Shown here: piece after piece, positions 1 through 64,000 of the stretch
Numbering within the stretch: position 1 is the first letter of the stretch
Layout of the letters: every line of letters starts with the position of its first letter
DNA from: the human T2T-CHM13v2.0 reference genome, Homo sapiens
NCBI GenBank assembly: GCA_009914755.4
Contig: CP068257.2
Coordinates: forward strand, 736,001-800,000
Length of the DNA: 64,000 nucleotides
Reading direction: 5' to 3'
Program-made: the position numbers and the translations under genes
The notes under the pieces: generated by a model
Told to the model about the DNA's origin: nothing
Databases searched by the model: none
Seen by the model: the letters and a program-made list of their open reading frames with translations, nothing else

Positions 1-950
1 TCTGCCTAAATTAACTTTGTGACATAACCCTGTACTGATCATCCAGGTGATGGGGCTTTTGTCTAGGCTCTGCCTAAGGGGGCATTGTGACATATTTCTG
101 CATTGATCACCCAGGTGGCGAACTCTTCTCTTGGATCTGCCTATGGGGGCATTGTGACAAATCTCTGCACTGATAACCAAGGTGATGTAACGGTTGTGTA
201 ACCTCTGCCTACAGGGGAATTGTGAGAGATCTCGCCACTGATCACCCAAGTGATGAAACCATTGTCTAGGCTTTGCGTACAGGGGGCTTTGTGACATACC
301 TTTGCACTGATCACCCAGGTGATGTAACACATCTAAGTTCGGCCTAAAGGAGCTTTGTGACATATCTCTGCACTGATCACTTAGGTGATGGAACACTTTT
401 ATAAGCACTGCCTACAGGGAATTTTGACAAATCTCTGCACTGATCACCTAGGTGATGTAACGCTTGTCTACCCTCTGTCCAACGGGGCATTGTGAAATAT
501 CTCTGCACTGATCACCCAGGTGATTCAACTCTTGACTAGGATCTGCCTACAGAGGTTATTGTGAAATATCTCTGCACTGATAAACTAGGTGGTGTAATCC
601 TTATCGAAGCTCTGCCTACAGGGGCGTTTTCACATATCCCTGAAGTGATGACAAAGGTGATGTAACTCTTGCCTAGGCTTTGCCTACAGGGGACATAGGA
701 CATATATCTGCACTGATCACCCAGGTGATGCAACTGTAGCCTAGGCTTTGCCTACAGGGGACATTGTGACATATCGCTTCAATGATCACCCATGTGATGC
801 AACTCTTGCCTAGGCTTTGCCTACAGGGGACATTGTGACATATCTCAGCACTGATGTCCCAGGTGCTGTAACATTAGTCTAGACTCTGGCTACACGGCAT
901 TGTGACATATCACTGCACTGATCAACCAGGTGATATAACTCTTGTCTAGG

Positions 951-1018
951 CTCTGCCTACAGGGGGCTTGTGACATATCCCTGCAATGATCACCCAGGTG
1001 ATCTAACTCTTGTTTAAG
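951..1018. repeat. Representative single 68-bp monomer.
   Basis: ctctgcctac at 951 recurs as ctctgcctaa at 1019 and ctctgcttaa at 1087, so the period is 68 bp. Neighbouring monomers within one HOR differ by about 10-30%. Confidence 0.9.
989..1002. other. Monomer-internal dyad ATCACC-CA-GGTGAT: a perfect 6-bp inverted repeat with a 2-bp spacer. It contains the E-box CAGGTG and overlaps a GATC/BclI site. It is present in nearly every monomer.
   Basis: Read directly at 989-1002. The same motif is visible in essentially every 68-bp unit, about 900 copies in the window. Any function is unknown; I record it only as a conserved sequence feature. Confidence 0.5.
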
Positions 1019-1905
1019 CTCTGCCTAAAGGGGCATTGTGACAGATCTCTACACTGATCACTCAGGTGATGTAACTATTGTCTAGGCTCTGCTTAAAGGG
1101 GCCTTGTCACATACCTCTGCACTGATCACCCAGGTGATGTAACTCTTGTCTAGACTCTGCTTTCACGGCATATTGTGACATATCCATGCGCTGATCACCT
1201 TAGTGATGTAACACTTCTGTAGGCTCGGCCTACAGGGGAATATTGACATATCTCTGCACTGTTAACCGAGGTGATTTAACTCTTGTCTAGGCTGTGCCCA
1301 CAGGGGGATTGAGACATGTCTCTGCACTGATCCCGAGGTGATCCAACTGTTGCCTGGTCTCTGCCTACTGGGGACATTGTGACATATCTCTGCACTGATC
1401 TCCCAGGTGCTGTAACTTTAGTCTAGGCTCTGGCTACACGGCATTGTGACATATCACTGCACTGATCACCCAGGTGATATAAATCTTGTCTAGGCTCTGC
1501 CTACAATGGCCTTGTGACATATCACTGCACTGATCACCCAGGTGATATAACTCTTCTCTAGGATCTGACCACAGGGTGCTTTGTGGCATTTCCCTGCAAT
1601 GATCACCCAGGTGATATACCACTTGCCAAGGCTCTGCCTACAGGGGCATTGCAATGTATCTCTGCACTGATCACCTCGTTCTTGTAACTCTTTTCTAGGA
1701 TCTGCCCACAGGGTGCCTTGTGACGTATCCCAGCAAGGATTACCCAGGTGATGTACCTCTCATCAAGGCTCTGCCTACAGGCACATTGCGATGTATCTCT
1801 GCACTGATCACCTAGGTCATGTAACTTTTGTCTAGGCTCTGCCTACGATGGCATTGTGACATATCTCTGCACTAATCATCCAAGTGATGTAACCCTTGTC
1901 TAGGA

Positions 1906-3879
1906 TCTGCCTAAATTAACTTTGTGACATAACCCTGTACTGATCATCCAGGTGATGGGGCTTTTGTCTAGGCTCTGCCTTAAGGGGGCATTGTGACATA
2001 TTTCTGCATTGATCACCCAGGTGGCGAACTCTTCTCTTGGATCTGCCTATGGGGGCATTGTGACAAACCTCTGCACTGATCACCCAGGTGATGTAACTGT
2101 TGTGTAACCTCTGCCTACAGGGGAATTGGGAGAGATCTCGCCACTGATCACCCAAGTGATGTAACCATTGTCTAGGCTTTGCTTACAATGGGCTTTGTGA
2201 CATACCTTTGCACTGATCACCCAGGTGATGTAACACATCTATGTTCGACCTAAAGGAGCTTTGTGACATATCTCTGCACTGATCACTTAGGTGATGGAAC
2301 ACTTTTATAAGCACTGCCTACAGGGAATTTTGACAAATCTCTGCACTGATCACCTAGGTGATGTAACGCTTGTCTACCCTCTGTCCAACGGGGCATTGTG
2401 AAATATCTCTGCACTGATCACCCAGGTGATTCAACTCTTGACTAGTATCTGCCTACAGAGGTTATTGTGAAATATCTCTGCACTGATAAACTAGGTGGTG
2501 TAATCCTTATCGAAGCTCTGCCTACAGGGGCGTTTTCACATATCCCTGAAGTGATGACAAAGGTGATGTAACCCTTGCCTAGGCTTTGCCTACAGGGGAT
2601 ATAAGACATATATCTGCACTGATCACCCAGGTGATGCAACTCTAGCCTAGGCTTTGCCTACAGGGGACATTGTGACATATCGCTTCAATGATCACCCATG
2701 TGATGCAACTCTTGCCTAGGCTTTGCCTACAGGGGACATTGTGACATAAATCTGCACTGATCTCCCAGGTGCTGTAACATTAGTCTAGACTCTGGCTACA
2801 CGGCATTGTGACATATCACTGCACTGATCAACCAGGTGATATAACTCTTGTCTAGGCCCTGCCTACAGGGGGCTTGTGACATATCTCTGCACTGATCACC
2901 CAGGTGATATAACTCTTCTCTAGGATCTGCCTACAGGGTGCTTTGCGACATATCCCTACAATGATCACCCAGGTGATCTAACTCTTGTTTAAGCTCTGCC
3001 TAAAGGGGCATTGTGACAGACCTCTGCACTGATCACTCAGGTGATGTAACTATTGTCTAGGCTCTGCTTAAAGGGGCCTTGTCACATACCTCTGCACTGA
3101 TCACCCAGGTGATGTAACTATTGTCTAGACTCTGTTTCACGGCATATTGTGACATATCTATGCGCTGATCACCTTAGTGATGTAACACTTGTGTAGGCTC
3201 GGCCTACAGGGGAATATTGACATATCTCTGCACTGTTAACCGAGGTGATTTAACTCTTGTCTAGGCTGTGCCCACAGGGGGATTGAGACATGTCTCTGCA
3301 CTGATCCCGAGGTGATCCAACTGTTGCCTGGTCTCTGCCTACTGGGGACATTGTGACATATCTCTGCACTGATCTCCCAGGTGCTGTAACTTTAGTCTAG
3401 GCTCTGGCTACACGGCATTGTGACATATCACTGCACTGATCACCCAGGTGATATAAATGTTGTCTAGGCTCTGCCTACAATGGCCTTGTGACATATCTCT
3501 GCACTGATCACCCAGGTGATATAACTCTTCTCTAGGATCTGACCACAGGGTGCTTTGTGGCATTTCCCTGCAATGATCACCCAGGTGATATACCACTTGC
3601 CAAGGCTCTGCCTACAGGGGCATTGCAATGTATCTCTGCACTGATCACCTCGGTCTTGTAACTCTTTTCTAGGATCTGCCCACAGGGTGCCTTGTGACGT
3701 ATCCCAGCAAGGATTACCCAGGTGATGTACCTCTCATCAAGGCTCTGCCTACAGGCACATTGCGATGTATCTCTGCACTGATCACCTAGGTCATGTAACT
3801 TTTGTCTAGGCTCTGCCTACGATGGCATTGTGACATATCTCTGCACTAATCATCCAAGTGATGTAACCCTTGTCTAGGA
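1906..3879. repeat. HOR copy U2, canonical 29-mer (1974 bp), subtype K.
   Basis: Landmarks are at 1906 and 3880. Subtype markers are ctaagggggcat preceded by gcttaag..., and tataagacatatatc. Confidence 0.8.
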
Positions 3880-5853
3880 TCTGCCTAAATTAACGATGCG
3901 ACATAAACCTGTACTGATCATCCAGGTGATGGGGCTTTTGTCTAGGCTCTGCCTAAGGGGGCATTGTGACATATTTCTGCATTGATCACCCAGGTGGCAA
4001 ACTCTTCTCTTGGATCTGCCTATGGTGGCATTGTGACAAATCTCTGCACTGATCACCCAGGTGATGTAACTGTTGTGTAACCTCTGCCTACAGGGGAATT
4101 GTGAGAGATCTCACCACTGATCACCCAAGTGATGTAACCATTGTCTAGGCTTTGCGTACAGGGGGCTTTGTGACATACCTTTGCACTGATCACCCAGGTG
4201 ATGTAACACATCTAAGTTCGGCCTAAAGGAGCTTTGTGACATACCTCTGCACTGATCACTTAGGTGATGGAACACTTTTATAAGCACTGCCTACAGGGAA
4301 TTTTGACAAATCTCTGCACTGATCACCTAGGTGATGTAACGCTTGTCTACCCTCTGTCCAACGGGGCATTGTGAAATATCTCTACATTGATCACCCAGGT
4401 GATTCAACTCTTGACTAGGATCTGCCTACAGAGGTTATTGTGAAATATCTCTGCACTGATAAACTAGGTGGTGTAATCCTTATCGAAGCTCTGCCTACAG
4501 GGGCGTTTTCACATATCCCTGAAGTGATGACAAAGGTGATGTAACCCTTGCCTAGGCTTTGTCTACAGGGGACATAGAACATATATCTGCACTGATCACC
4601 CAGGTGATGCAACTCTAGCCTAGGCTTTGCCTACAGGGGACATTGTGACATATCGCTTCAATGATCACCCATGTGATGCAACTCTTGCCTAGGCTTTGCC
4701 TACAGGGGACATTGTGACATATCTCTGCACTGATCTCCCAGGTGCTGTAACATTAGTCTAGGCTCTGGCTACACGGCATTGTGACATATCACTGCACTGA
4801 TCAACCAGGTGATATAACTCTTGTCTAGGCCCTGCCTACAGGGGGCTTGTGACATATCTCTGCACTGATCACCCAGGTGATATAACTCTTCTCTAGGATC
4901 TGCCTACAGGGTGCTTTGCGACATATCCCTGCAATGATCACCCAGGTGATCTAACTCTTGTTTAAGCTCTGCCTAAGGGGGCATTGTGACAGACCTCTGC
5001 ACTGATCACTCAGGTGATGTAACTATTGTCTAGGCTCTGCTTAAAGGGGCCTTGTCACATACCTCTGTACTGATCACCCAGGTGATGTAACTCTTGTCTA
5101 GCCTCTGCTTTCACGGCATATTGTGACATATCTATGCGCTGATCACCTTAGTGATGTAACACTTGTGTAGGCTCGGCCTACAGGGGAATATTGACATATC
5201 TCTGCACTGTTAACCGAGGTGATTTAACTCTTGTCTAGGCTGTGCCCACAGGGGAATTGAGACATGTCTCTGCACTGATCCCGAGGTGATCCAACTGTTG
5301 CCTGGTCTCTGCCTCCTGGGGACATTGTGACATATCTCTGCACTGATCTCCCAGGTGCTGTAAATTTAGTCTAGGCTCTGGCTACACGGCTTTGTGAGAT
5401 ATCACTGCACTGATCACCCAGGTGATATAAACGTTGTCTAGGCTCTGCCTACAATGGCCTTGTGACATATCTCTGCACTGATCACCCAGGTGATATAACT
5501 CTTCTCTAGGATCTGACCACAGGGTGCTTTGTGGCATTTCCCTGCAATGATCACCCAGGTGAAATACCACTTGCCAAGGCTCTGCCTACAGGGGCATTGC
5601 AATATATCTCTGCACTGATCACCTCGGTCTTGCAACTCTTTTCTAGGATCTGCCCACAGGGTGCCTTGTGACGTATCCCAGCAAGGATTACCCAGGTGAT
5701 GTACCTCTCATCAAGGCTCTGCCTACAGGCACATTGCGATGTATCTCTGCACTGATCACCTAGGTCATGTAACTTTTGTCTAGGCTCTGCCTACGATGGC
5801 ATTGTGACATATCTCTGCACTAATCATCCAAGTGATGTAACCCTTGTCTAGGA
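3880..5853. repeat. HOR copy U3, 29-mer (1974 bp), subtype F.
   Basis: Landmarks are at 3880 and 5854. It shares private variants with U8, for example gtctacaggggacatagaacat. Confidence 0.8.
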
Positions 5854-7757
5854 TCTGCCTAAATTAACTTTGTGACATAACCCTGTACTGATCATCCAGG
5901 TGATGGGGCTTTTGTCTAGGCTCTGCCTAAGGGGGCATTGTGACATATTTCTGCATTGATCACCCAGGTGGCGAACTCTTCTCTTGGATCTGCCTATGGG
6001 GGCATTGTGACAAATCTCTGCACTGATAACCCAGGTGATGTAACGGTTGTGTGACCTCTGCCTACAGGGGAATTGTGAGAGATTTCGCCACTGATCACCC
6101 AAGTGATGAAACCATTGTCTAGGCTTTGCGTACAGGGGGCTTTGTGACATACCTTTGCACTGATCACCCAGGTGATGTAACACATCTAAGTTCGGCCTAA
6201 AGGAGCTTTGTGACATATCTCTGCACTGATCACTTAGGTGATGGAACACTTTTATAAGCACTGCCTACAGGGAATTTTGACAAATCTCTGCACTGATCAC
6301 CTAGGTGATGTAACGCTTGTCTACCCTCTGTCCAACGGGGCATTGTGAAATATCTGTGCACAGATCACCCAGGTGATTCAACTCTTGACTAGGATCTGCC
6401 TACAGAGGTTATTGTGAAATATCTCGGCACTGATAAACTAGGTGGTGTAATCCTTATCGAAGCTCTGCCTACAGGGGCGTTTTCACATATCCCTGAAGTG
6501 ATGACAAAGGTGATGTAACTCTTGCCTAGGCTTTGCCTACAGGGGACATAGGACATATATCTGCACTGATCACCCAGGTGATGCAACTGTAGCCTAGGCT
6601 TTGCCTACAGGGGACATTGTGACATATCGCTTCAATGATCACCCATGTGATGCAACTCTTGCCTAGGCTTTGCCTACAGGGGACATTGTGACATATCTCA
6701 GCACTGATGTCCCAGGTGCTGTAACATTAGTCTAGACTCTGGCTACACGGCATTGTGACATATCACTGCACTGATCAACCAGGTGATATAACTCTTGTCT
6801 AGGCTCTGCCTACAGGGGGCTTGTGACATATCCCTGCAATGATCACCCAGGTGATCTAACTCTTGTTTAAGCTCTGCCTAAAGGGGCATTGTGACAGACC
6901 TCTGCACTGATCACTCAGGTGATGTAACTATTGTCTAGACTCTGCTTAAAGGGGCCTTGTCACATACCTCTGCACTGATCACCCAGGTGATGTAACTCTT
7001 GTCTAGACTCTGTTTCACGGCATATTGTGACATATCTATGCGCTGATCACCTTAGTGATGTAACACTTGTGTAGGCTCGGCCTACAGGGGAATATTGACA
7101 TATCTCTGCACTGTTAACCGAGGTGATTTAACTCTTGTCTAGGCTGTGCCCACAGGGGGATTGAGACATGTCTCTGCACTGATCCCGAGGTGATCCAACT
7201 GTTGCCTGGTCTCTGCCTACTGGGGACATTGTGACATATCTCTGCACTGATCTCCCAGGTGCTGTAACTTTAGTCTAGGCTCTGGCTACACGGCATTGTG
7301 ACATATCACTGCACTGATCACCCAGGTGATATAAATCTTGTCTAGGCTCTGCCTACAATGGCCTTGTGACATATCTCTGCACTGATCACCCAGGTGATAT
7401 AACTATTCTCTAGGATCTGACCACAGGGTGCTTTGTGGCATTTCCCTGCAATGATCACCCAGGTGATATACCACTTGCCAAGGCTCTGCCTACAGGGGCA
7501 TTGCAATGTATCTCTGCACTGATCACCTCGGTCTTGTAACTCTTTTCTAGGATCTGCCCACAGGGTGCCTTGTGACGTATCCCAGCAAGGATTACCCAGG
7601 TGATGTACCTCTCATCAAGGCTCTGCCTACAGGCACATTGCGATGTATCTCTGCTCTGATCACCTAAGTCATGTAACTTTTGTCTAGGCTCTGCCTACGA
7701 TGGCATTGTGACAAATCTCTGCACTAATCATCCAAGTGATGTAACACTTGTCTAGGA
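5854..7757. repeat. HOR copy U4, 28-mer, deletion type A (1904 bp).
   Basis: Landmarks are at 5854 and 7758. It carries the same monomer deletion as U1 and U9. Confidence 0.8.
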
Positions 7758-9662
7758 TCTGCCTAAAGTAACTTTGTGACATAACCCTGTACTGATCATC
7801 CAGGTGATGCGGCTTTTGTCTAGGCTCTGCCTAAGGGGGCATTGTGACATATTTCTGCATTGATCACCCAGGTGGCGAACTCTTCTCTTGGATCTGCCTA
7901 TGGGGGCATTGTGACAAATCTCTGCACTGATCACCCAGGTGATGTAACTGTTGTGTAACCTCTGCCTACAGGGGAATTGTGTGAGATCTCGCCACTGATC
8001 ACCCAAGTGATGTAACCATTGTCTAGGCTTTGCGTAAAGGGGGCTTTGTGACATACCTTTGCACTGATCACCCAGGTGATGTAACACATCTAAGTTCGGC
8101 CTAAAGGAGCTTTGTGACATATCTCTGCACTGATCACTTAGGTGATGGAACACTTTTATAAGCACTGCCTACAGGGAATTTTGACAAATCTCTGCACTGA
8201 TCACCTAGGTGATGTAACGCTTGTCTACCCTCTGTCCAACGGGGCATTGTGAAATATCTCTGCACTGATCACCCAGGTGATTCAACTATTGACTAGGATC
8301 TGCCTACAGAGGTTATTGTGAAATATCTCTGCACTGATAAACTAGGTGGTGTAATCCTTATCGAAGCTCTGCCTGCAGGGGCGTTTTCACATATCCCTGA
8401 ATTGATGACAAAGGTGATGTAACCCTTGCCTAGGCTTTGCCTACAGGGGACATAGGACATATATCTGCACTGATCACCCAGGTGATGCAACTCTAGCCTA
8501 GGCTTTGCCTACAGGGGACATTGTGACATATCTCTGCACTGATCTCCCAGGTGCTGTAACATTAGTCTAGACTCTGGCTACACGGCATTGTGACATATCA
8601 CTGCACTGATCAACCAGGTGATATAACTCTTGTCTAGGCCCTGACTACAGGGGGCTTGTGACATATCTCTGCACTGATCACCCAGGTGATATAACTCTTC
8701 TCTAGGGTCTGCCTACAGGGTGCTTTGCGACATATCCCTGCAATGATCACCCAGGTGATCTAACTCTTGTTTAAGCTCTGCCTAAAGGGGCATTGTGACA
8801 GACCTCTGCACTGATCACTCAGGTGATGTAACTATTGTCTAGGCTCTGCTTAAAGGGGCCTTGTCACATACCTCTGCACTGATAACCCAGGTGATGTAAC
8901 TCTTGTCTAGCCTCTGCTTTCACGGCATATTGTGACATATCTATGCGCTGATCACCTTAGTGATGTAACACTTGTGTAGGCTCGGCCTACAGGGGAATAT
9001 TGACATATCTCTGCACTGTTAACCGAGGTGATTTAACTCTTGTCTAGGCTGTGCCCACAGGGGGTTTGAGACATGTCTCTGCACTGATCCCGAGGTGATC
9101 CAACTGTTGCCTGGTCTCTGCCTACTGGGGACATTGTGACATATCTCTGCACTGATCTCCCAGGTGCTGTAATTTTAGTCTAGGCTCTGGCTACACGGCA
9201 TTGTGACATATCACTGCACTGATCACCCAGGTGATATAAATCTTGTCTAGGCTCTGCCTACAATGACCTTGTGACATATCTCTGCACTGATCACCCAGGT
9301 GATATAACTCTTCTCTAGGATCTGACCACAGGGTGCTTTGTGGCATTTCCCTGCAATGATCACCGAGGTGATATACCACTTGTCAGGGCTCTGCCTACAG
9401 GGGCATTGCAACGTATCTCTGCACTGATCACCTCGGTCTTGTAACTCTTTTCTAGGATCTGCCCACAGGGTGCCTTGTGACGTATCCCAGCAAGGATTAC
9501 CCAGGTGATGTACCTCTCATCAAGGCTCTGCCTACAGGCACATCGCGATGTATCTCTGCACTGATCACCTAGGTCATGTAACTTTTGTCTAGGCTCTGCC
9601 TACGATGGCATTGTGACATATCTCTGCACTAATCATCCAAGTGATGTAACCCTTGTCTAGGA
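7758..9662. repeat. HOR copy U5, 28-mer, deletion type B (1905 bp).
   Basis: Landmarks are at 7758 and 9663. The cgcttcaatgatcacccatg monomer is missing at ~8490-8530. The boundary reads aaagtaac. Confidence 0.8.
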
Positions 9663-53008: not shown

Positions 53009-54981
53009 TGTGCCTAAATTAAATTTTTGACATAACCCTGTACTGATCATCCAGGTGATGGGGCTTTTGTCTAGGCTCTGCCTAAGGGGGCATTGTGACA
53101 TATTTCTGCATTGATCACCCAGGTGGCGAACTCTTCTCTCGGATCTGCCTATGGGGGCATTGTGAGAAATCTCTGCACTGATCACCCAGGTGATGTAACT
53201 GTTGTGTAACCTCTGCCTACAGGGGAATTGTGAGAGATCTCCCCACTGATTACCCAAGTGATGTAACCATTGTCTAGGCTTTGCGTACAGGGGGCTTTGT
53301 GACATACCTTTGCACTGATCAACCAGGTGATGTAACACATCTAAGTTCGGCCTAAAGGAGCTTTGTGACACATCTCTGCACTGATCACTTAGGTGATGTA
53401 ACACTTTTATAATCACTGCCTACAGGGAATTTTGACAAATCTCTGCACTGATCACCTAGGTGATGTAACTCTTGTCTACCCTCTGTCCAACGGGGCATTG
53501 TGAAATATCTCAGCACTGAACACCCAGGTGATTCAACTCTTGACTAGGAACTGCCTACAGAGGTTATTGTGAAATATCTCTGCACTGATAAACTAGGTGG
53601 TGTAACCCTTGTCCAAGCTCTGCCTACAGGGGCGTTTCCACATATCCCTGAACTGATGACAAAGGTGATGTAACTCTTGCCTAGGCTTTGCCTACAGGGG
53701 CATTGGACATATATCTGCACTGATCACCCAGGTGATGCAACTCTTGCCTAGGCTTTGCCTACAGGGGACATTGTGACATATCTCTTCAATGATCACTCAT
53801 GTGACGCAACTCTAGCCTAGGCTTTGCCTACGGGGGACATTGTGACATATCTCTGCACTGATCTCCCAGGTACTGTAACTTTAGTCTAGGCTCTGGCTAC
53901 ACGGCATTGTGACATATCACTGCACTGATCAACCAGGTGATATAACTCTTGTATAGGCTCTGCCTACAGGGGGATTGTGACCTACCTCTGCACTGATCAC
54001 CCAGGTGATACAACTCTTCTCTAGGATCTGCCTACAGGGTGCTTTGTGACATATCCCTGCACTGATCACCCAGGTGATCTAACTCTGGTCTAAACTCTGC
54101 CTAAAGGGGCATTGTGACAGATCTCTGCACTGATCACTCAGGTGATGTAACTATTGTCTAGGCTCTGCTTCAAGGGGGCTTGTCACATATCTCTGCACTG
54201 ATCACCCAGGTGATGTAACTCTTGTCGAGGTTCTGCTTCCAGGGCATATTGTGACATATCTATGCACTGATCACCTTAGTGATGTAACACTTTTGTAGGC
54301 TCGGCCTACAGGGGAATCTTGACATATCTCTGCACTGTTAACCGAGGTGATTTAACTCTTGTCTAGGCTGTGCCCACAGAGGGATTGAGACATATCTCTG
54401 CACTGATCCCGAGGTGATACAACTCTTGCCTGGTCTCTGCCTACTGTGGACATTGTGACATATCTCTGCACTGATCTCCCTGGTGCTGTAACTTTAGTCT
54501 AGGCTCTGGGTACACGGCATTGTGACATATCACTGCACTGATCACCCAGGCGATACAACTCTTGTCTAGGCTCTGCCTACAATGGTCTTGTGACATATCT
54601 CTGCACTGATCACCCAGGTGATATAACTCTTCTCTAGGATCTGACCACACGGTGCTTTGTGACATATTCCTGCAATGATCACCCAGGAGATATACCACTT
54701 GCCAAGGCTCTGCCTACAGGGGCATTGTAATGTATCTCTGCACTGATCACCAAGGTCTTGTAGCTATTTTCTAGGATCTGCCTACAGGGTGCTTTGTGAC
54801 GTGTCCCAGCAAGGATTACCCAGGTGATATACCTCTCATCAAGGCTCTGCCTACAGGCACATTGCGATATATCTCTGCACTGATCACCTAGGTCATGTAA
54901 CTTTTGACTAGGCTCTACCTACGATGGCATTGTGACATATCTCTGCACTAATCATCCAAGTGATGTAACACTTGTCTAGGA
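53009..54981. repeat. HOR copy U28, D-family 29-mer (1973 bp).
   Basis: Landmarks (tgtgcctaaattaa) are at 53009 and 54982. Confidence 0.8.
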
Positions 54982-56953
54982 TGTGCCTAAATTAACTTTT
55001 TGACATAACCCTGTACTGATCATCCAGGTGATGGGGCTTTTGTCTAGGCTCTGCCTAACGGGGCATTGTGACATATTTCTGCATTGATCACCCAGGTGGC
55101 GAACTCTTCTCTCGGATCTGCCTATGGGGGCATTGTGAGAAATCTCTGCACTGATCACCCAGGTGATGTAACTGTTGTGTAACCTCTGCCTACAGGGGAA
55201 TTGTGAGAGATCTCGCCACTGATTACCCAAGTGATGTAACCATTGTCTAGGCTTTGCGTACAGGGGCTTTGTGACATACCTTTTCACTGATCACCCAGGT
55301 GATGTAACACATCTAAGTTCGGCCTAAAGGAGCTTTGTGACATATCTCTGCACTGATCACTTAGGTGATGTAACACTTTTATAATCACTGCCTACAGGGA
55401 ATTTGACGAATCTCTGCACTCATCACCTAGGTGATGTAACTCTTGTCTACCCTCTGTCCAACGGGGCATTGTGAAATATCTCTGCACTGATCACCCAGGT
55501 GATTCAACTCTTGACTAGGAACTGCCTACAGAGGTTATTGTGAAATATCTCTGCACTGATAAACTAGGTGGTGTAACCCTTGTCCAAACTCTGCCTACAG
55601 GGGCGTTTCCACATATCCCTGAACTGATGACAAAGGTGATGTAACACTTGCCTAGGCTTTGCCTACAGGGGACATTGGACATATATCGGCACTGATCACC
55701 CAGGTGATGCAACTCTTGCCTAGGCTTTGCCTACAGGGGACATTGTGACATATCTCTTCAATGATCACTCATGTGATGCAACTCTAGCCTAGGCTTTGCC
55801 TACGGGGGACATTGTGACATATCTCTGCACTGATCTCCCAGGTACTTTAACTTTAGTCTAGGCTCTGGCTACACGTTATTGTGACATATCACTGCACTGA
55901 TCAACCAGGTGATATAACTCTTGTATAGGCTCTGCCTACAGGGGGATTGTGACCTACCTCTGCACTGATCACCCAGGTGATATAACTCTTCTCTAGGATC
56001 TGCCTACAGGGTGCTTTGTGACATATCCCTGCACTGATCACCCAGGTGATCTAACACCGGTCTAAGCTCTGCCTAAAGGGGCATTGTGACAGATCTCTGC
56101 ACTGATCACTCAGGTGACGTAACTATTGTCTAGGCTCTGCTTAAAGGGGCCTTGTCACATATCTCTGCACTGATCACCCAGGTGATGTAACTATTGTCTA
56201 GGCTCTGCTTCCAGGGCATATTGTGACATATCTATGCACTGATCACCTTAGTGATGTAACACTTGTGTAGGCTCGGCCTACAGGGGAATCTTGACATATC
56301 TCTGCACTCTTAAACGAGGTGATTTAACTCTTGTCCAGGCTGTGCCCACAGTGGGATTGAGACATATCTCTGCACTGATCCCGAGGTGATCCAACTCTTG
56401 CCTGGTCTCTGCCTACTGGGGACATTGTGACATATCTCTGCACTGATCTCCCAGGTGCTGTAAATTTAGTCTACGCTCTGGCTACACGGCATTGTGACAT
56501 ATCACTGCACTGATCACCCAGGCGATACAACTCTTGTCTAGGCTCTGCCTACAATGAACTTGTGACATATCTCTGCACTGATCACCCATGTGATATAACT
56601 CTTCTCTAGGATCTGACCACACGGTGCTTTGTGACATATCCCTGCAATGATCACCCAGGTGATATACCACTTGCCAAGGCTCTGCCTACAGGGGCATTGC
56701 AATGTATCTCTGCACTGATCACCTAGGTCTTGTAGCTAATTTCTAGGATCTGCCTACAGGGTGCTATGTGACGTGTCCCAGCAAGGATTACCCAGGTGAT
56801 GTACCTCTCATCAAGGCTCTGCCTAAAGGCACATTGCGATATATCTCTGCACTGATCACCTAGGTCATGTAACTTTTGTCTAGGATCTACCTAAGATGGC
56901 ATTGTGACATATCTCTGCACTAATCATCCAAGTGATGTAACACTTGTCTAGGA
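54982..56953. repeat. HOR copy U29, D-family 29-mer (1972 bp).
   Basis: Landmarks are at 54982 and 56954. Confidence 0.8.
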
Positions 56954-58924
56954 TGTGCCTAAATTAACTTTTTGACATAACCCTGTACTGATCATCCAGG
57001 TGATGGGGCTTTTGTCTAGGCTCTGCCTAAGGGGGCATTGTGACATATATCTGCATTGATCACCCAGGTGGCGAACTCTTCTCTCGGATCTGCCTATGGG
57101 GGCATTGTGAGAAATCTCTGCACTGATCACCCAGGTGATGTAATTGTTGTGTAACCTCTGCCTACACGGGAATTGTGAGAGATCTCGCCACTGATTACCC
57201 AAGTGATGTAACCATTGTCTAGGCTTTGCCTACAGGGGGCTTTGTGACATAACTTTGCACTGATCACCCAGGTGATGTAACACATCTAAGTTCGGGCTAA
57301 AGGAGCTTTGTGACACATCTCTGCACTGATCACTTAGGTGATGTAACACTTTTATAATCACTGCCTACAGGGAATTTGACGAATCTCTGCACTGATCACC
57401 TAGGTGATGTAACTCTTGTCTACCCTCTGTCCAACGGGGCATTGTGAAATATCTCTGCACTGAACACCCACGTGATTCAAATCTTGACTAGAAACTGCCT
57501 ACAGAGGTTATTGTGAAATATCTCTGCACTGATAAACTAGGTTGTGTAACCCTTCTCCAAGCTGTGCCTACAGTGGCGTTTCCACATATCCCTGAACTGA
57601 TGACAAAGGTGATGTAACTCTTGCCTAGGCTTTGCCTACAGGGGACATTGGACATATATCTACACTGATCACCCAGGTGATGCAACTCTTGCCTAGGCTT
57701 TGTCTACAGGGGACATTGTGACATATCTCTTCAATGATCACTCATGTGATGCATCTCTTGCCTAGGCTTTGCCAACAGGGGACATTGACATATCTCTGCA
57801 CTGATCTCCCAGGTGCTGTAACTTTAGTCTAGGCTCTGGCTACACGGCATTGTGACATATCACTGCACTGATCAACCAGGTGATATAACTCTTGTATAGG
57901 CTCTGCCTACATGGGGATTGTGACATACATCTGCACTGATCACCCAGGTGATATAACTCTTCTCTAGGATCTGCCTACAGGGTGCTTTGTGACATATCGC
58001 TGCACTGATCACCCAGGTGACCTAACTCTGGTCTAAGCTCTGCCTAAAGGGGCATTGTGACAGATCTCTGCACTGATCACTCAGGTGATGTAACTGTTGT
58101 CTAGTCTCTGTTTAAAGGGGCCTTGTCACATATCCCTGCACTGATTACCCAGGTGATGTAACTCTTGTCTAGGCTCTGCTTCCAGGGCATATTGTGACAT
58201 AACTATGCACTGATCACCTTATTGATGTAACACTTGTGTAGGCTCGGCCTACAGGGGAATCTTGACATATCTCTGCACTGTTAACCGAGGTGATTTAACT
58301 CTTGTCTAGGCTGTGCCCACAGGGGGATTGAGACATATCTCTGCACTGATCCCGAGGTGATCCAACTCTTGCCTGGTCTCTGCCTACTGGGGACATCGTG
58401 ACATATCTCTGCACTGATCTCCCAGGTGCTGTAAATTTTGTCTAGGCTCTGGCTACACGGTATTGTGACATATCACTGCACTGATCACCCAGGCGTTACA
58501 ACTCTTGTCTAGGCTCTGCCTACAATGGTCTTGTGACATATCTCTGCACTGATCACCCAGGTGATGTAACTCTTCTCTAGGATCTGACCACGGGGTGCTT
58601 TGTGACATATCCCTGCAATGATCACCCAGGTGATATACCACCTGCCAAGGCTCTGCCTACAGGGGCATTGCAATGTATCTCTGCACTGATCACCTAGGTC
58701 TTGTAGCTATTTTCTAGGATCTGCCTACAGGGTGCTTTGTGACGGGTCCCAGCAAGGATTACCCAGGTGATGTACCTCTCATCAAGGCTCTGCCTACAGG
58801 CACATTGCGATATATCTCTGCACTGATCACCTAGGTCATGTAACTTTTTTCTAGGCTCTACCTACGATGGTATTGTGACATATCTCTGCACTAATCATCC
58901 AAGTGATGTAACACTTGTCTAGGA
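56954..58924. repeat. HOR copy U30, D-family 29-mer (1971 bp).
   Basis: Landmarks are at 56954 and 58925. Confidence 0.8.
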
Positions 58925-60896
58925 TGTGCCTAAATTAACTTTTTGACATAACCCTGTACTGATCATCCAGGTGATGGGGCTTTTGTCTAGGCTCTGCCTA
59001 AGGGGGCATTGTGACATATTTCTGCATTGATCACCCAGGTGGCGAACTCTTCTCTCGGATCTGCCTATGGGGGCATTGTGAGAAATCTCTGCACTGATCA
59101 CCCAGGTGATGTAACTGTTGTGTAACCTCTGCCTACAGGGGAATGGTGAGAGATCTCGCCACTGATTACCCAAGTGATGTAACCATTGTCTAGGCTTTGC
59201 GTACAGGGGGCTTTGTGACATACCTTTGCACTGATCACCCAGGTGATGTAACACATCTAAGTTCGGCCTAAAGGAGCTTTGTGACACATCTCTGCACTGA
59301 TCACTTAGGTGATGTAACACTTTTATAATCACTGCCTACAGGGAATTTTGACAAATCTCTGCACTGATCACCTAGGTGATGTAACTCTTGTCTACCCTCT
59401 GTCCAACGGGGCATTGTGAAATATCTCAGGACTGAACACCCAGGTGATTCAACTCTTGACTAGGAACTGCCTACAGAGGTTATTGTGAAATATCTCTGCA
59501 CTGATAAACTAGGTGGTGTAACCCTTGTCCAAGCTCTGCCTACAGGGGCGTTTCCACATATCCCTGAACTGATGACAAAGTGATGTAACTCTTGCCTAGG
59601 CTTTGCCTACAGGGGCATTGGACATATATCTGCACTGATCACCCAGGTGATGCAACTCTTGCCTAGGCTTTGCCTACAGGGGACACTGTGACATATCTCT
59701 TCAATGATCACTCATGTGATGCATCTCTTGCCTAGGCTTTGCCAACAGGGGACATTGTGACATATCTCTGCACTGATCTCCCTGGTACTGTAACTTTAGT
59801 CTAGGCTCTGGCTACACAGCATTGTGACATATCACTGCACTGATCAACCAGGTGATATAACTCTTGTATAGGCTCTGCCTACAGGGGGATTGTGACCTAC
59901 CTCTGCACTGATCACCCAGGTGATATAACTCTTCTCTAGGATCTGCCTACAGGGTGCTTTGTGACATATCCCTGCACTGATCACCCAGGTGACCTAACTC
60001 TGTTCTAAGCTCTGCCTAAAGGGGCATTGTGACAGATCTCTGCACTGATCACTCAGGTGATGTAACTATTGTCTAGGCTCTGCTTAAAGGGGCCTTGTCA
60101 CATATCCCTGCACTGATCACCCAGGTGATGTAACTCTTGTCTAGGCTCTGCTTCCAGGGCATATTGTGACATAACTATGCACTGATCACCTTAGTGATGT
60201 AACACTTGTGTAGGCTCGGCCTACAGAGGAATCTTGACATATCTCTGCACTGTTAAACGAGGTGATTTAACTCTTGTCTAGGCTGTGCCCACAGGGGGAT
60301 TGAGACATATCTCTGCACTGATCCCGAGGTGATCCAACTCTTGCCTGGTCTCTGCCTACTGGGGACATTGTGACATATCTCTGCACTGATCTCCCAGGTG
60401 CTGTAAATTTTGTCTAGGCTCTGGCTACACGGCATTGTGACTTATCACTGCACTGATCACCCAGGCGATACAACTCTTGTCTAGGCTCTGCCTACAATGG
60501 TCTTGTGACATATCTCTGCACTGATCACCCAGGTGATATAACTCTTCTCTAGGATCTGACCACGGGGTGCTTTGTGACATATCCCTGCAATGATCACCCA
60601 GGTGATATACCACTTGCCAAGGCTCTGCTTACAGGGGCATTGCAATGTATCTCTGCACTGATCACCTAGGTCTTGTAGCTATTTTCTAGGATCTGCCTAC
60701 AGGGTGCTTTGTGACGGGTCCCAGCAAGGATTACCCAGGTGATGTACCTCTCATCAAGGCTCTGCCTACAGGCACATTGCGATATATCTCTGCACTGATC
60801 ACCTAGGACATGTAACTTTTGTCTAGGCTCTACGTACGATGGTATTGTGACATATCTCTGCACTAATCATCCAAGTGATGTAACACTTGTCTAGGA
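58925..60896. repeat. HOR copy U31, D-family 29-mer (1972 bp).
   Basis: Landmarks are at 58925 and 60897. There is a 1-bp deletion in caaagtgatgtaac near 59578. Confidence 0.8.
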
Positions 60897-62869
60897 TGTG
60901 CCTAAATTAACTTTTTGACATAACCCTGTACTGATCATCCAGGTGATGGGGCTTTTGTCTAGGCTCTGCCTAAGGGGGCATTGTGACATATTTCTGCATT
61001 GATCACCCAGGTGGCGAACTCTTCTCTCGGATCTGCCTATGGGGGCATTGTGAGAAATCTCTGCACTGATCACCCAGGTGATGTAACTGTTGTGTAACAT
61101 CTGCCTACAGGGGAATTGTGAGAGATCTCCCCACTGATTACCCAAGTGATGTAACCATTGTCTAGGCTTTGCGTACAGGGGGCTTTGTGACATACCTTTG
61201 CACTGATCACCCAGGTGATGTAACACATCTAAGTTCGGCCTAAAGGAGCTTTGTGACACATCTCTGCACTGATCACTTAGGTGATGTAACACTTTTATAA
61301 TCACTGCCTACAGGGAATTTTGACAAATCTCTGCACTGATCACCTAGGTGATGTAACTCTTGTCTACCCTCTGTCCAACGGGGCATTGTGAAATATCTCA
61401 GCACTGAACACCCAGGTGATTCAACTCTTGACTAGGAACTGCCTACAGAGGTTATTGTGAAATATCTCTGCACTGATAAACTAGGTGGTGTAACCCTTGT
61501 CCAAGCTATGCCTACAGGGGCGTTTCCACATATCCCTGAACTGATGACAAAGGTGATGCAACTCTTGCCTATGCTTTGCCTACAGGGACATTGGACATAT
61601 ATCTGCACTGATCACCCAGGTCATGCAACTCCTGCCTAGGCTTTGCCTACAGGGGACACTGTGACATATCTCTTCAATGATCTCTCATGTGATGCATCTC
61701 TTGCCTAGGCTTTGCCAACAGGGGACATTGTGACATATCTCTGCACTGATCTCCCTGGTACTGTAACTTTAGTCTAGGCTCTGGCTAAACGGCATTGTGA
61801 CATATCAATGCACTGATCAACCAGGTGATATAACTCTTGTATAGGCTCTGCCTACAGGGGGCTTGTGACCTACCTCTGCACTGATCACCCAGGTGATATA
61901 ACTCTTCTCTAGGATCTGCCTACAGGGTGCTTTGTGACATATCCCTGCACTGATCACCCAGGTGACCTAACTCTGGTCTAAGCTCTGCCTAAAGGGGCAT
62001 TGTGACAGATCTCTGCACTGATCACTCAGGTGATGTAACTATTGTCTAGGCTCTGATTAAAGGGGCCTTGTCACATATCCCTGCACTGATCACACAGGTG
62101 ATGTAACTCTTGTGTAGACTCTGCTTCCTGGGCATATTGTGACACAACTATGCACTGATCACCTTAGTGATGTAACACTTGTGTAGGCTCGGCCTACAGA
62201 GGAATCTTGACATATCTCTGCACTGTTAAACGAGGTGATTTAACTCTTGTCTAGGCTGTGCCCACAGGGGGATTGAGACATATCTCTGCACTGATCCCGA
62301 GTTGATCCAACTCTTGCCTGGTCTCTGCCTACTGGGGACATTGTGACATATCTCTGCACTGATCTCCCAGGTGCTGTAAATTTTGTCTAGGCTCTGGCTA
62401 CACGGCATTGTGACTTATCACTGCACTGATCACCCAGGCGATACAACTCTTGTCTAGGCTCTGCCTACAATGGTCTTGTGACATATCTCTGCACTGATCA
62501 CCCAGGTGATATAACTCTTCTCTAGGATCTGACCACGGGGTGCTTTGTGACATATCCCTGCAATGATCACCCAGGTGATATACCACTTGCCAAGGCTCTG
62601 CTTACAGCGGCATTGCAATGTATCTCTGTACTGATCACCTAGGTCTTCTAGCTATTTTCTAGGATCTGCCTACAGGGTGCTTTGTGACGGGTCCCAGCAA
62701 GGATTACCCAGGTGATGTACCTCTCATCAAGGCTCTGCCTACAGGCACATTGCGATATATCTCTGCACTGATCACCTAGGTCACGTAACTTTTGTCTAGG
62801 CTCTACCTACGATGGTATTGTGACATATCTCTGCACTAATCATCCAAGTGATGTAACACTTGTCTAGGA
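60897..62869. repeat. HOR copy U32, D-family 29-mer (1973 bp).
   Basis: Landmarks are at 60897 and 62870. Confidence 0.8.
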
Positions 62870-64000
62870 TGTGCCTAAATTAACTTTTTGACATAACCCT
62901 GTACTGATCATCCAGGTGATGGGGCTTTTGTCTAGGCTCTGCCTAAGGGGGCATTGTGACATATTTCTGCATTGATCAGCCAGGTGGCGAACCCTTCTCT
63001 CGGATCTGCCTATGGGGGCATTGTGAGAAATCTCTGCACTGATCACCCAGGTGATGTAACTGTTGTGTAACCTCTGCCTACAGGGGAATTGTGAGAGATC
63101 TCCCCACTGATTACCCAAGTGATGTAACCATTGTCTAGGCTTTGCGTACAGGGGGCTTTGTGACATACCTTTGCACTGATCACCCAGGTGATGTAACACA
63201 TCTAAGTTCGGCCTAAAGGAGCTTTGTGACACATCTCTGCACTGATCACTTAGGTGATGTAACTCTTGTCTACCCTCTGTCCAACGGGGCATTGTGAGAA
63301 ATCTCTGCACTGATCACCCAGGTGATGTAACTGTTGTGTAACCTCTGCCTACAGGGGAATTGTGAGAGATCTCGCCACTGATTACCCAAGTGATGTAACC
63401 ATTGTCTAGGCTTTGCGTACAGGGGCTTTGTGACATACCTTTTCACTGATCACCCAGGTGATGTAACACATCTAAGTTCGGCCTAAAGGAGCTTTGTGAC
63501 ATATCTCTGCACTGATCACTTAGGTGATGTAACACTTTTATAATCACTGCCTACAGGGAATTTGACGAATCTCTGCACTCATCACCTAGGTGATGTAACT
63601 CTTGTCTACCCTCTGTCCAACGGGGCATTGTGAAATATCTCTGCACTGATCACCCAGGTGATTCAACTCTTGACTAGGAACTGCCTACAGAGGTTATTGT
63701 GAAATATCTCTGCACTGATAAACTAGGTGGTGTAACCCTTGTCCAAACTCTGCCTACAGGGGCGTTTCCACATATCCCTGAACTGATGACAAAGGTGATG
63801 TAACACTTGCCTAGGCTTTGCCTACAGGGGACATTGGACATATATCGGCACTGATCACCCAGGTGATGCAACTCTTGCCTAGGCTTTGCCTACAGGGGAC
63901 ATTGTGACATATCTCTTCAATGATCACTCATGTGATGCAACTCTAGCCTAGGCTTTGCCTACGGGGGACATTGTGACATATCTCTGCACTGATCTCCCAG
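62870..64000. repeat. HOR copy U33, D family. It is truncated by the window end and contains an internal ~271-bp (4-monomer) tandem duplication.
   Basis: The landmark is at 62870. ttgtgagaaatctctgcactgatcacccaggtgatgtaactgttgtgtaacc occurs at 63021 and again at 63292. At the junction, cacttaggtgatgtaac joins tcttgtctaccctctgtccaacggggcattgtga, which skips one monomer. Confidence 0.75.

What the first reader, a model, noticed from the sequence alone, without database searches (positions are those of the whole stretch)
1..64000. The window is pure satellite DNA, probably primate beta-satellite, with no genes and no defence system
Every base belongs to a 68-bp tandem repeat. There is no unique sequence, no promoter and gene architecture, and no interspersed transposon. 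The features that might look exciting on a checklist are all artefacts of the tandem repeat: periodic ORFs, repeats that could be mistaken for CRISPR, and dyad symmetry. The monomer read as its reverse complement (GATCAGTGCAGAGATATGTCACAATGCCCCTGTAGGCAGAGCCTAGACAAGAGTTACATCACCTGGGT) matches what I remember of the human beta-satellite (Sau3A family) consensus. Beta-satellite is found on acrocentric short arms, chr1, chr9, chrY and next to D4Z4.
Basis: partly seen in the sequence, partly recalled or inferred. Interest (0 to 1): 0.5.

Follow-up and report, generated by a model that had tools for sequence, protein, structure and literature searches.

The report
Beta-satellite higher-order repeat array
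The whole 64-kb window is one uninterrupted block of the well-known 68-bp primate "beta satellite" DNA, most likely human, arranged in about 33 copies of a 1974-bp higher-order unit, with no genes or defence system, so it is ordinary heterochromatin.

Summary
All 64,000 bases tile into 941 head-to-tail monomers of 66-69 bp, in one orientation, with no gap and no inserted element. The monomers form 33 copies of a 29-monomer, 1974-bp higher-order repeat (HOR), with 28-mer (1905 bp) and 31-mer (2109 bp) variants.

The beta-satellite reading is supported by evidence independent of memory:
- Three published human 4q35 beta-satellite primers match at 62-236 sites each, against 0 expected by chance.
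- 79% of monomers carry the Sau3A site.
- CpG is depleted five-fold.
- The same HOR turns up, in register, in contaminant contigs of unrelated bacterial assemblies and in metagenome contigs, at up to 99.2% identity.
- A related contig has these repeats on both sides of a DUX4-encoding D4Z4-like unit.

There are no tRNAs, no Rfam, Pfam or PADLOC hits, and no CRISPR architecture.

Extra detail: copies in 1-52.2 kb are 97.4-100% identical and include a 9.9-kb tandem duplication with one mismatch. This block meets a second HOR haplotype (96.6% identical) at a sharp, in-register junction at 52217-52257. Species (human versus another African ape) and chromosome could not be determined. The family is already known, so interest is low.

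The parts
1..64000 (.). Uninterrupted beta-satellite array: 941 monomers of 66-69 bp in a single orientation. The classical Sau3A-phased consensus (GATCAGTG...) reads on the minus strand. The array runs off both ends of the window.
11637..13610 (.). Reference copy (H7) of the canonical 29-monomer, 1974-bp higher-order repeat. Monomers within it are on average 75.7% identical. Monomers m13-15 resemble m22-24 (90-94%), an old internal 9-monomer duplication that produces the lag-613 peak.
1..52217 (.). Main block: HOR copies H1-H26 plus the first ~17 monomers of H27. Copies are 97.4-100% identical and fall into recurring types A-G. It includes 28-mers lacking m15 (starting at 1, 5854, 15585), 28-mers lacking m12 (7758, 19463, 29396, 41304, 49131) and 31-mers (21368, 31301).
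52217..52257 (.). Junction interval inside monomer 18 of copy H27. All 67 block-diagnostic sites switch here from main-type to d-type alleles, and the HOR register is preserved.
52257..64000 (.). d-block: the rest of H27 plus H28-H33. This is a second HOR haplotype. Its consensus is 96.6% identical to the main block (67 substitutions, no indel) and its copies are 96-98.5% identical to each other. External contigs match this form best.
17565..27497 (.). First copy of a 9,933-bp five-HOR tandem duplication (29+28+31+29+29 monomers).
   Evidence: 17565-27533 equals 27498-37466, 9,969 bp with 1 mismatch
27498..37466 (.). Second copy of the 9,933-bp five-HOR tandem duplication.
22932..22999 (.). 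Recombinant monomer at the junction of the two-monomer insertion that makes the 31-mer HOR. Its first half follows m24 and its second half follows m22. An identical twin lies at 32865-32932.
62870..64000 (.). Last, incomplete HOR copy (H33) with an irregular order: m1-6, then m3-12 (four monomers duplicated), then a truncated monomer at the window edge.
11631..12044 (-). Example of the 137-aa ORF that recurs once per HOR. It is a repeat artefact made of reiterated peptide motifs and is not a gene.

Best explanation
**What it is.** The window is an internal 64-kb piece of a 'simple' beta-satellite array (BSR/Beta, Sau3A family), meaning one without LSau or D4Z4 inserts. It comes from a hominid genome, most probably human. 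It is non-coding, germline-methylated heterochromatic DNA.

**Structure.** The array has 941 monomers of about 68 bp in one orientation. They form about 33 copies of a 29-monomer, 1974-bp HOR.

**How it arose and is maintained (inferred).** The array is built and kept uniform by unequal homologous exchange and tandem segmental duplication in HOR register. That process leaves:
- whole-monomer length variants (28-, 29- and 31-mers);
- a recombinant m24/m22 junction monomer;
- recurring HOR types and a 9.9-kb five-HOR tandem duplication that is still 99.99% identical;
- a sharp in-register junction at 52.2 kb, where a young, locally amplified haplotype meets the older, more widespread one.

**Shown versus inferred.** Shown: the anatomy, family membership at the sequence level, the absence of genes, and the presence of the same HOR in other public data. 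Inferred: the exchange mechanism, the heterochromatin and methylation state, a human origin, and an acrocentric short-arm or pericentromeric location.
For: - **Periodicity and tiling:**
- **HOR map and copy identities:**
- **Published human primers:** the 4q35 D4Z4/pLAM reverse primer and the two BSR-labelled primers match far above chance, each on one strand only.
- **Sau3A site:** present in 746 of 940 monomers.
- **CpG depletion:** CpG o/e 0.20 against GpC o/e 0.95.
- **Contamination pattern:** a generic monomer 27-mer occurs in 21 small contigs of unrelated prokaryote assemblies, those with recorded coverage at about 1x or below. This is the typical pattern of human DNA contamination.
- **Same HOR elsewhere:** several contigs align in register to this HOR. 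Against the d-block consensus, L034 is 99.2% over 1200 bp, L019 98.5% over 1853 bp, L017 98.0% and L022 97.4%. L008 independently shows probe spacings of 1906 and 1974 bp.
- **D4Z4 association:** L002 has these repeats flanking a DUX4-like D4Z4 unit. This matches the published linkage of beta satellite with D4Z4/LSau (PMC3488192, PMC4787827, 10.1101/2021.07.12.452052).
- **Exchange footprints:** the hybrid monomer, the 9,969-bp duplicate with 1 mismatch, and the sharp M-to-d switch.
- **No genes:**
Against: - No Dfam/RepeatMasker run and no alignment to a primate genome was possible. The family assignment rests on three short published oligos, the family definition and the genomic company the repeat keeps, not on a full-length reference consensus.
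- Window GC is 47%. One paper quotes 53% for the family (PMC4787827).
- No external contig exceeds 99.2% identity, and the main-block alleles are barely seen outside the window. Human origin of this exact array is therefore not proven.
- Only one of three HOR length variants shows a clean hybrid junction. The junctions of the copies lacking m12 and m15 are unresolved.
[quoted passage not shown] This 64-kb stretch has none, which limits how far the location can be inferred.
Confidence: 0.93

Rival explanations
1. The family is the same (beta satellite), but the window comes from a non-human African great ape (chimpanzee, bonobo or gorilla) rather than from human.
For: - Beta satellite is enriched on acrocentric short arms of human, gorilla, chimp and bonobo (10.64898/2025.12.22.696095).
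- Human and chimp 4q beta-satellite consensus sequences are 98.5% identical (PMC3488192), so monomer-level matches do not separate the species.
- No external contig reaches more than 99.2% identity, and the main-block haplotype is essentially unseen elsewhere.
Against: - Contaminant contigs in cultured bacterial isolates are almost certainly human DNA. They carry this same HOR in register at 96-99.2% identity.
- That range equals the within-window range of 94-100%.
- Satellite HORs are generally not conserved this closely between species. This last point is general knowledge and was not tested here.
Confidence: 0.12
2. The window is the beta-satellite cluster linked to D4Z4 (4qA/10qA distal cluster), or a beta-composite LSau-betaSat array.
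For: The 4q35 primers match. Related contigs show the composite arrangement.
Against: - The 4qA cluster is only 6.2 kb (PMC3488192, PMC4787827). The window is 64 kb and is open at both ends.
- No GC-rich LSau or D4Z4 insert interrupts the 941 monomers.
- The composite-type contigs are only 78-87% identical to this HOR.
Confidence: 0.01
3. The window is a prokaryotic or mobile-element feature, such as a CRISPR-like array, a repeat protein gene or a defence locus, or a non-primate satellite acquired horizontally.
For: There are regular repeats with a conserved ~22-nt core and a more variable ~46-nt remainder, and periodic ORFs of up to 148 aa. The monomer motif is found in prokaryote assemblies.
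Against: - 86% of the 'spacers' recur exactly, and distinct ones are 72% identical to each other, against 53% after shuffling.
- ORFs have no Pfam or PADLOC family, and their product is not on record.
- The prokaryote hits are contigs of 209-2029 bp scattered over unrelated taxa, those with recorded coverage at about 1x or below. This is contamination, not inheritance.
- CpG o/e of 0.20 indicates a methylated vertebrate genome.
Confidence: 0.005
4. Part of the fine structure is an assembly artefact rather than biology: the 9.9-kb near-perfect duplication and/or the sharp junction at 52.2 kb.
For: The copies are 100% identical over kilobases (H12=H17, H13=H18, H14=H19). Long satellite arrays are among the hardest regions to assemble (PMC9186530).
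Against: - The duplicated unit has a single internal mismatch and clean in-register ends.
- The same HOR types (B, C, D, E) recur elsewhere in the window at 99.2-99.7% identity. This graded series is expected from successive real duplications.
- No reads were available to test this.
Confidence: 0.05

Closest known systems
Human beta-satellite HOR arrays (Sau3A family). The classical subsets are pB4 on the acrocentric chromosomes and pB3 on chromosome 9 (Waye & Willard 1989, as summarised in PMC8125562). In T2T nomenclature these are 'simple' betaSat arrays.
   Same: The window has a ~68-bp monomer with a Sau3A site and tandem head-to-tail arrays organised in multimeric HORs that are the recent unit of amplification. 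It has no LSau insert. The same HOR is seen in presumably human contaminant DNA.
   Different: I could not obtain the pB3 or pB4 sequences or their HOR lengths, so identity with either named subset is untested. The published chr1 and acrocentric arrays show many strand switches, whereas this 64-kb stretch has none.
4qA/10qA distal beta-satellite cluster (BSR) next to D4Z4 and pLAM.
   Same: It is the same monomer family. Three published 4q primers match at 0-1 mismatch.
   Different: That cluster is 6.2 kb and adjoins pLAM and D4Z4. The window is at least 64 kb, pure satellite, and HOR-structured.
Beta-composite (LSau-betaSat, D4Z4-like) arrays of acrocentric short arms and pericentromeres.
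   Same: The monomer family is shared, and even the 30-mer probe chosen as specific to this HOR occurs in them (L002, L004, L009, L013, L016, L021).
   Different: Those contigs alternate 68-bp repeats with 60-75% GC inserts encoding DUX4-like ORFs. They are only 78-87% identical (90% for L021) to this HOR; L013 is an exception at about 94%. The window has no such insert.
Alpha-satellite HOR arrays. This is an architectural analogue, not a relative.
   Same: Both show diverged monomers (~76% identical here) inside near-identical HOR copies (97-100%), whole-monomer insertion and deletion variants, super-repeats, and abutting haplotype layers.
   Different: The monomer sequence is unrelated and is 68 bp rather than 171 bp. 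Beta satellite is not the centromere-forming satellite.

Membership tests
Beta satellite (BSR/Beta, Sau3A family) | Tandem head-to-tail arrays of a diverged ~68-bp (67-69 bp) monomer | tested here: met
   TRF reports period 68 with 940 copies. My tiling gives 941 monomers of 66-69 bp with no gaps. Monomers average 86% identity to the consensus. The definition comes from 10.1101/2021.07.12.452052 and PMC4787827.
Beta satellite (BSR/Beta, Sau3A family) | One Sau3AI (GATC) site per monomer, which gives a 68-bp ladder on digestion | tested here: met
   GATC is present in 746 of 940 monomers, and the commonest GATC spacings are 68, 69 and 67 bp. The ladder is described in PMC3488192.
Beta satellite (BSR/Beta, Sau3A family) | Sequence similarity to reference human beta-satellite sequence | tested here: met
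   Three published human 4q35 oligos match. The D4Z4/pLAM reverse primer matches at 27 of 28 bases. 4qAe-r and 4qAe-f, both labelled BSR, match at 0-1 mismatch. The counts are 104, 236 and 62 sites against 0 expected, each on one strand only. This is only about 60 nt of reference sequence in total. The full Dfam BSR/Beta consensus could not be compared.
Beta satellite (BSR/Beta, Sau3A family) | RepeatMasker/Dfam annotation as BSR/Beta (the operational definition used in T2T papers) | not testable with these tools
   No Dfam or RepeatMasker is available. 10.64898/2026.07.22.740206 defines betaSat from the RepeatMasker classes BSAT|Beta|LSAU-BSAT.
Beta satellite (BSR/Beta, Sau3A family) | Monomers organised into multimeric higher-order repeats | tested here: met
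   The HOR has 29 monomers and 1974 bp, in 33 copies at 94-100% identity, while monomers within one HOR are 76% identical.
Beta satellite (BSR/Beta, Sau3A family) | Genomic association with LSau/D4Z4-like (DUX4) units | tested here: met
   This is met in related loci and not in the window itself. L002 has beta-satellite blocks on both sides of a unit encoding a DUX4-like double homeodomain (PDB 5z6z, E = 1.9e-76; two Pfam homeodomains). The window is the 'simple' array type with no insert.
Beta satellite (BSR/Beta, Sau3A family) | G+C-rich composition (53% quoted in PMC4787827) | tested here: inconclusive
   The window is 47.4% G+C. That is lower than the quoted figure. Whether it counts as G+C-rich relative to the host genome average was not tested here.
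Beta satellite (BSR/Beta, Sau3A family) | Hominoid host, located on acrocentric short arms or in the pericentromeres of chr1, 3, 9, Y and others | not testable with these tools
   No primate genome is searchable. The indirect evidence is vertebrate-type CpG depletion and the same HOR in presumably human contaminant contigs.
CRISPR array or prokaryotic defence locus | Conserved direct repeats separated by unique, mutually unrelated spacers, with cas or defence genes nearby | tested here: not met
   86% of 'spacer' instances recur exactly, and distinct ones are 72% identical to each other. No ORF has a PADLOC or Pfam family.

The most novel reading that the evidence does not exclude
The main block (1-52.2 kb) may be a very recently amplified HOR haplotype that is specific to one chromosome or even private to one haplotype. 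Only 2 of the 17 closest external contigs (L008, L028) match its consensus better than the d-block's. It contains a 9.9-kb five-HOR duplication with a single mismatch. It has expanded in register against the older, widespread haplotype. If so, the 52.2-kb junction and the block's diagnostic alleles would be a useful marker for dating and tracing recent beta-satellite turnover across human pangenome and ape T2T assemblies. A weaker option is that the strand-specific E-box dyad (ATCACC-CA-GGTGAT), present in over half the monomers, is a conserved protein-binding site; ZNF555 binding to one 4qA BSR unit has been reported.
Probability: 0.3. Interest if true: 0.2.

Novelty: already known. Interest (0 to 1): 0.08.

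Why it matters
For gene or defence-system discovery it matters very little. This is a textbook primate satellite family, described in 1985-1989 and fully assembled in T2T genomes, and the window holds nothing else.

The practical value is negative. The window can be removed from any scan for genes, CRISPR arrays or defence systems, and its periodic ORFs, 'spacers' and dyads should be treated as repeat artefacts.

For satellite biologists, three features are clean small-scale examples of how HOR arrays evolve, though none is unexpected:
- the sharp in-register junction between two HOR haplotypes;
- the near-perfect 9.9-kb super-repeat;
- the m24/m22 recombinant monomer.

Tried and rejected
1. 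**Exact-product lookup.** I looked up the 137-aa ORF product in public assemblies and found nothing on record.
2. **Printed consensus in papers.** Full-text searches for conserved 12- to 17-mers of the monomer returned one primer paper and otherwise unrelated SSR or SNP papers. No printed beta-satellite consensus is held. Waye & Willard 1989 (PMC297815) is not held.
3. **This specific HOR in the literature.** A search for pB3/pB4/D9Z5/'1974 bp'/'29-mer' gave nothing useful. Chromosome assignment was abandoned.
4. **Array flanks from metagenome contigs.** In L001 and L017 the non-satellite parts are bacterial or phage genes, so these are chimeric assemblies and not real flanks.
5. **First BLAST run.** Running the loci against the whole window with blastn timed out. 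I redid it with megablast against the HOR consensus.
6. **First CRISPR-style test.** The fuzzy regex found too few cores. I redid it from the monomer tiling.
7. **Hybrid-junction test.** It was inconclusive for the 28-mers lacking m12 and m15.
8. **Large protein-database search.** I decided not to spend one on the ORFs. They are repeat artefacts with no family, and the output carries no organism label that would settle human versus ape.
9. **Bacterial promoter and terminator scan.** I did not run it, because it does not apply to a primate satellite.


Full report
**1. The observation**

TRF reports a single array from 17 to 64000 with period 68 and 940 copies. I tiled the window against the 68-bp consensus. 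This gives 941 consecutive monomers (498 of 68 bp, 243 of 69, 194 of 67, 5 of 66, and a truncated last one). There are no unassigned bases between them, and all are in one orientation. GC content is flat at 0.467-0.479. The statements 'every base belongs to the repeat' and 'no interspersed transposon' are therefore literally correct.

Autocorrelation shows long-range peaks at 1974 (the strongest, 0.536), 1905, 2109 and 613 bp. TRF rerun with a 2000-bp ceiling returns periods 68, 1974 (32.4 copies, 90% match, top score) and 1905.

**2. Anatomy**

I labelled every monomer by its best match to a reference HOR copy (11637-13610). This shows 33 HOR copies:

| Variant | Length | Copies start at |
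|---|---|---|
| Canonical 29-mer | 1974 bp | most copies |
| 28-mer lacking m15 | 1905 bp | 1, 5854, 15585 |
| 28-mer lacking m12 | 1905 bp | 7758, 19463, 29396, 41304, 49131 |
| 31-mer with two extra monomers | 2109 bp | 21368, 31301 |
| Irregular last copy, m3-6 duplicated | incomplete | 62870 |

- Monomers within one HOR are only 75.7% identical on average. An old internal duplication (m13-15 resembling m22-24) explains the 613-bp peak.
- HOR copies H1-H26 are 97.4-100% identical to each other and fall into recurring types.
- A five-HOR, 9,933-bp unit is tandemly duplicated almost perfectly. Segment 17565-27533 equals 27498-37466 over 9,969 bp with one mismatch.
- Copies H27-H32 form a second haplotype. 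Its consensus differs from the main block at 67 sites, giving 96.6% identity with no indel.
- The change between the two haplotypes is not a gradient. Inside H27 all diagnostic sites switch from main-type to d-type between positions 52217 and 52257, and the HOR register is preserved.
- The extra monomer of the 31-mers (22932-22999, with a twin at 32865-32932) is an m24/m22 hybrid. This is the recombinant product expected from unequal exchange. The junctions of the copies lacking m12 and m15 are not resolvable.

**3. Nothing else is there**

- There are no tRNA or tmRNA genes and no Rfam family at gathering threshold.
- ORFs of 100 aa or more occur once per HOR at the same phase, all on the minus strand. 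They are built from reiterated peptide motifs.
- The seven representative ORFs have no PADLOC family. They also have no Pfam family, apart from one line at 16.7 bits against a cutoff of 27.
- The 137-aa product is not on record in public assemblies.
- I also treated the conserved ~22-nt core as a 'repeat' and the remainder of each monomer as a 'spacer'. 86% of spacer instances recur exactly elsewhere. Distinct spacers are 72% identical to one another, against 53% after shuffling. This is not CRISPR architecture.
It carries a strand-specific CAGGTG E-box in 527 monomers and is simply part of the monomer.

**4. Is it beta satellite?**

It describes the window but is not an external test. I found four independent lines of evidence.

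*(a) Published human oligos.*
- The reverse primer used to amplify the last D4Z4 unit plus pLAM from a human chr4 BAC (10.1101/157040) matches at 27 of 28 bases once per HOR. It has 104 hits at up to 3 mismatches, against 0 expected. On 4qA, pLAM is followed directly by a 6.2-kb beta-satellite cluster (PMC3488192).
- Two primers explicitly labelled BSR in PMC4787827 also match. 4qAe-r is exact at several sites, with 236 hits at up to 1 mismatch, all on the + strand. 4qAe-f has 62 hits at up to 1 mismatch, all on the - strand. Both have 0 hits expected.

*(b) The family definition.* Beta satellite is defined as a 67-69 bp repeat with a Sau3AI site, organised in HORs (PMC4787827, PMC8125562, 10.1101/2021.07.12.452052). 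The window meets this. GATC is present in 746 of 940 monomers, with 67-69 bp spacing.

*(c) The company it keeps.* A 30-mer specific to this HOR hits 21 metagenome contigs. Several of them alternate 68-bp-periodic blocks with 60-75% GC inserts. In L002 the insert encodes a 494-aa ORF with two homeodomains that matches human DUX4 at E = 1.9e-76. This is the known beta-satellite plus D4Z4/LSau composite arrangement.

*(d) Composition.* CpG o/e is 0.20 against GpC o/e of 0.95. This is the footprint of a germline-methylated vertebrate genome.

**5. Whose genome?**

A generic monomer 27-mer occurs in 21 small contigs of unrelated prokaryote assemblies, including Streptomyces, Mycobacterium, Streptococcus oralis and Campylobacter concisus. 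Where coverage is recorded it is about 1x or below. This is the standard signature of human DNA contamination.

Several of these contigs, and several metagenome contigs, align in register to this same HOR. They match the d-block consensus better than the main block:

| Contig | Identity to d-block consensus | Aligned length |
|---|---|---|
| L034 | 99.2% | 1200 bp |
| L019 | 98.5% | 1853 bp |
| L017 | 98.0% | 1369 bp |
| L022 | 97.4% | 1352 bp |

L008 independently shows 1906- and 1974-bp probe spacings.

I infer two things. The d-block is the widespread form of the HOR. The main block is a locally amplified derivative. Human is the most likely source. Another African ape cannot be excluded, because beta satellite is abundant in gorilla, chimp and bonobo and monomer consensus sequences are 98.5% identical between human and chimp. 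The chromosome could not be assigned. The library holds no sequence or length for the classical pB3 (chr9) and pB4 (acrocentric) HORs.

**6. How it works**

This is non-coding satellite heterochromatin. The array is generated and homogenised by unequal homologous exchange and tandem segmental duplication in HOR register. The supporting footprints are:
- the whole-monomer length variants;
- the hybrid monomer;
- the graded series of HOR types (99.2-100% identical);
- the 9.9-kb duplication;
- the sharp in-register junction between haplotypes.

These footprints are shown. The process itself, the chromatin state and the location are inferred.

**7. Comparison and verdict**

The window is a 'simple' beta-satellite HOR array in the T2T sense.
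- It is not the 6.2-kb 4qA cluster, because it is too long and has no pLAM or D4Z4.
- It is not a composite LSau array, because it has no inserts.
- Unlike the published descriptions of the chr1 and acrocentric arrays, it has no strand switch in 64 kb.

The refinements are the mixed HOR lengths, the two haplotype blocks and the recent super-repeat. The family is already known, and interest is low.

Noticed in passing
L022-L042 (prokaryote genome-contig hits): Beta-satellite monomers occur in 21 small contigs (209-2029 bp) of GTDB representative assemblies from unrelated bacteria and archaea. These include Streptomyces spp., Mycobacterium ostraviense, Streptococcus oralis, Campylobacter concisus and several MAGs. 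Where coverage is recorded it is about 1x or below. This is almost certainly human DNA contamination left in reference assemblies. It bears on the published claim that beta satellite is widely distributed by horizontal transfer (ref. 91 in PMC8125562).
   Followed up: partly
L017 1-6700 and 6364-6804(-); L001 1-5250: Two metagenome contigs join this HOR to ordinary bacterial or phage genes (SHMT-like, alcohol dehydrogenase-like, ribonucleotide-reductase-like, PhoH-like). One L017 ORF runs from beta-satellite peptide motifs straight into a MarR-like C-terminus. These are chimeric assemblies, not real array flanks.
   Followed up: partly
L002 1400-5800: A D4Z4-like unit with an uninterrupted 494-aa DUX4-like ORF (2183-3667, +) is followed by an inverted second DUX4-like fragment. 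The ORF at 3803-4336 (-) resembles the DUX4 middle region, and the ORF at 4915-5421 (-) mirrors the one at 1422-2246 (+). The two units therefore sit head to head, with beta satellite on both sides. Its origin (human acrocentric DUX4L copy or another primate) was not determined.
   Followed up: no
window, every monomer (e.g. 309-322): An E-box, CAGGTG, sits on the + strand in 527 of 940 monomers and only once on the - strand. It lies inside the 14-bp dyad ATCACC-CA-GGTGAT, which has 276 exact copies and is the most conserved part of the monomer. A KRAB zinc-finger protein (ZNF555) has been reported to bind one 4qA beta-satellite unit (PMC4787827). Whether this motif is the site was not examined.
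   Followed up: no
window 1-52217 versus L001-L042: Among the 17 external contigs that are at least 93% identical to the HOR, 13 match the d-block consensus better, one ties, and only L001, L008 and L028 slightly prefer the main block (L001 over only 126 bp). The homogeneous 52-kb main block thus looks like a local or private expansion of a rarer haplotype.
   Followed up: partly
L018 (9337 bp), L003, L004, L011: Long metagenome contigs of 68-bp repeats are only 78-82% identical to this HOR but share the exact 30-mer probe. They are presumably other beta-satellite subfamilies. Their own HOR structure was not analysed.
   Followed up: no
window 3880-5853 and 13611-15584 (H3, H8): These two main-block copies form their own type and are 99.0% identical to each other. 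In H3, as in H27-H32, position m13 is closer to reference m22 than to reference m13. This suggests gene conversion between the paralogous monomers m13 and m22, or retention of an older state.
   Followed up: no
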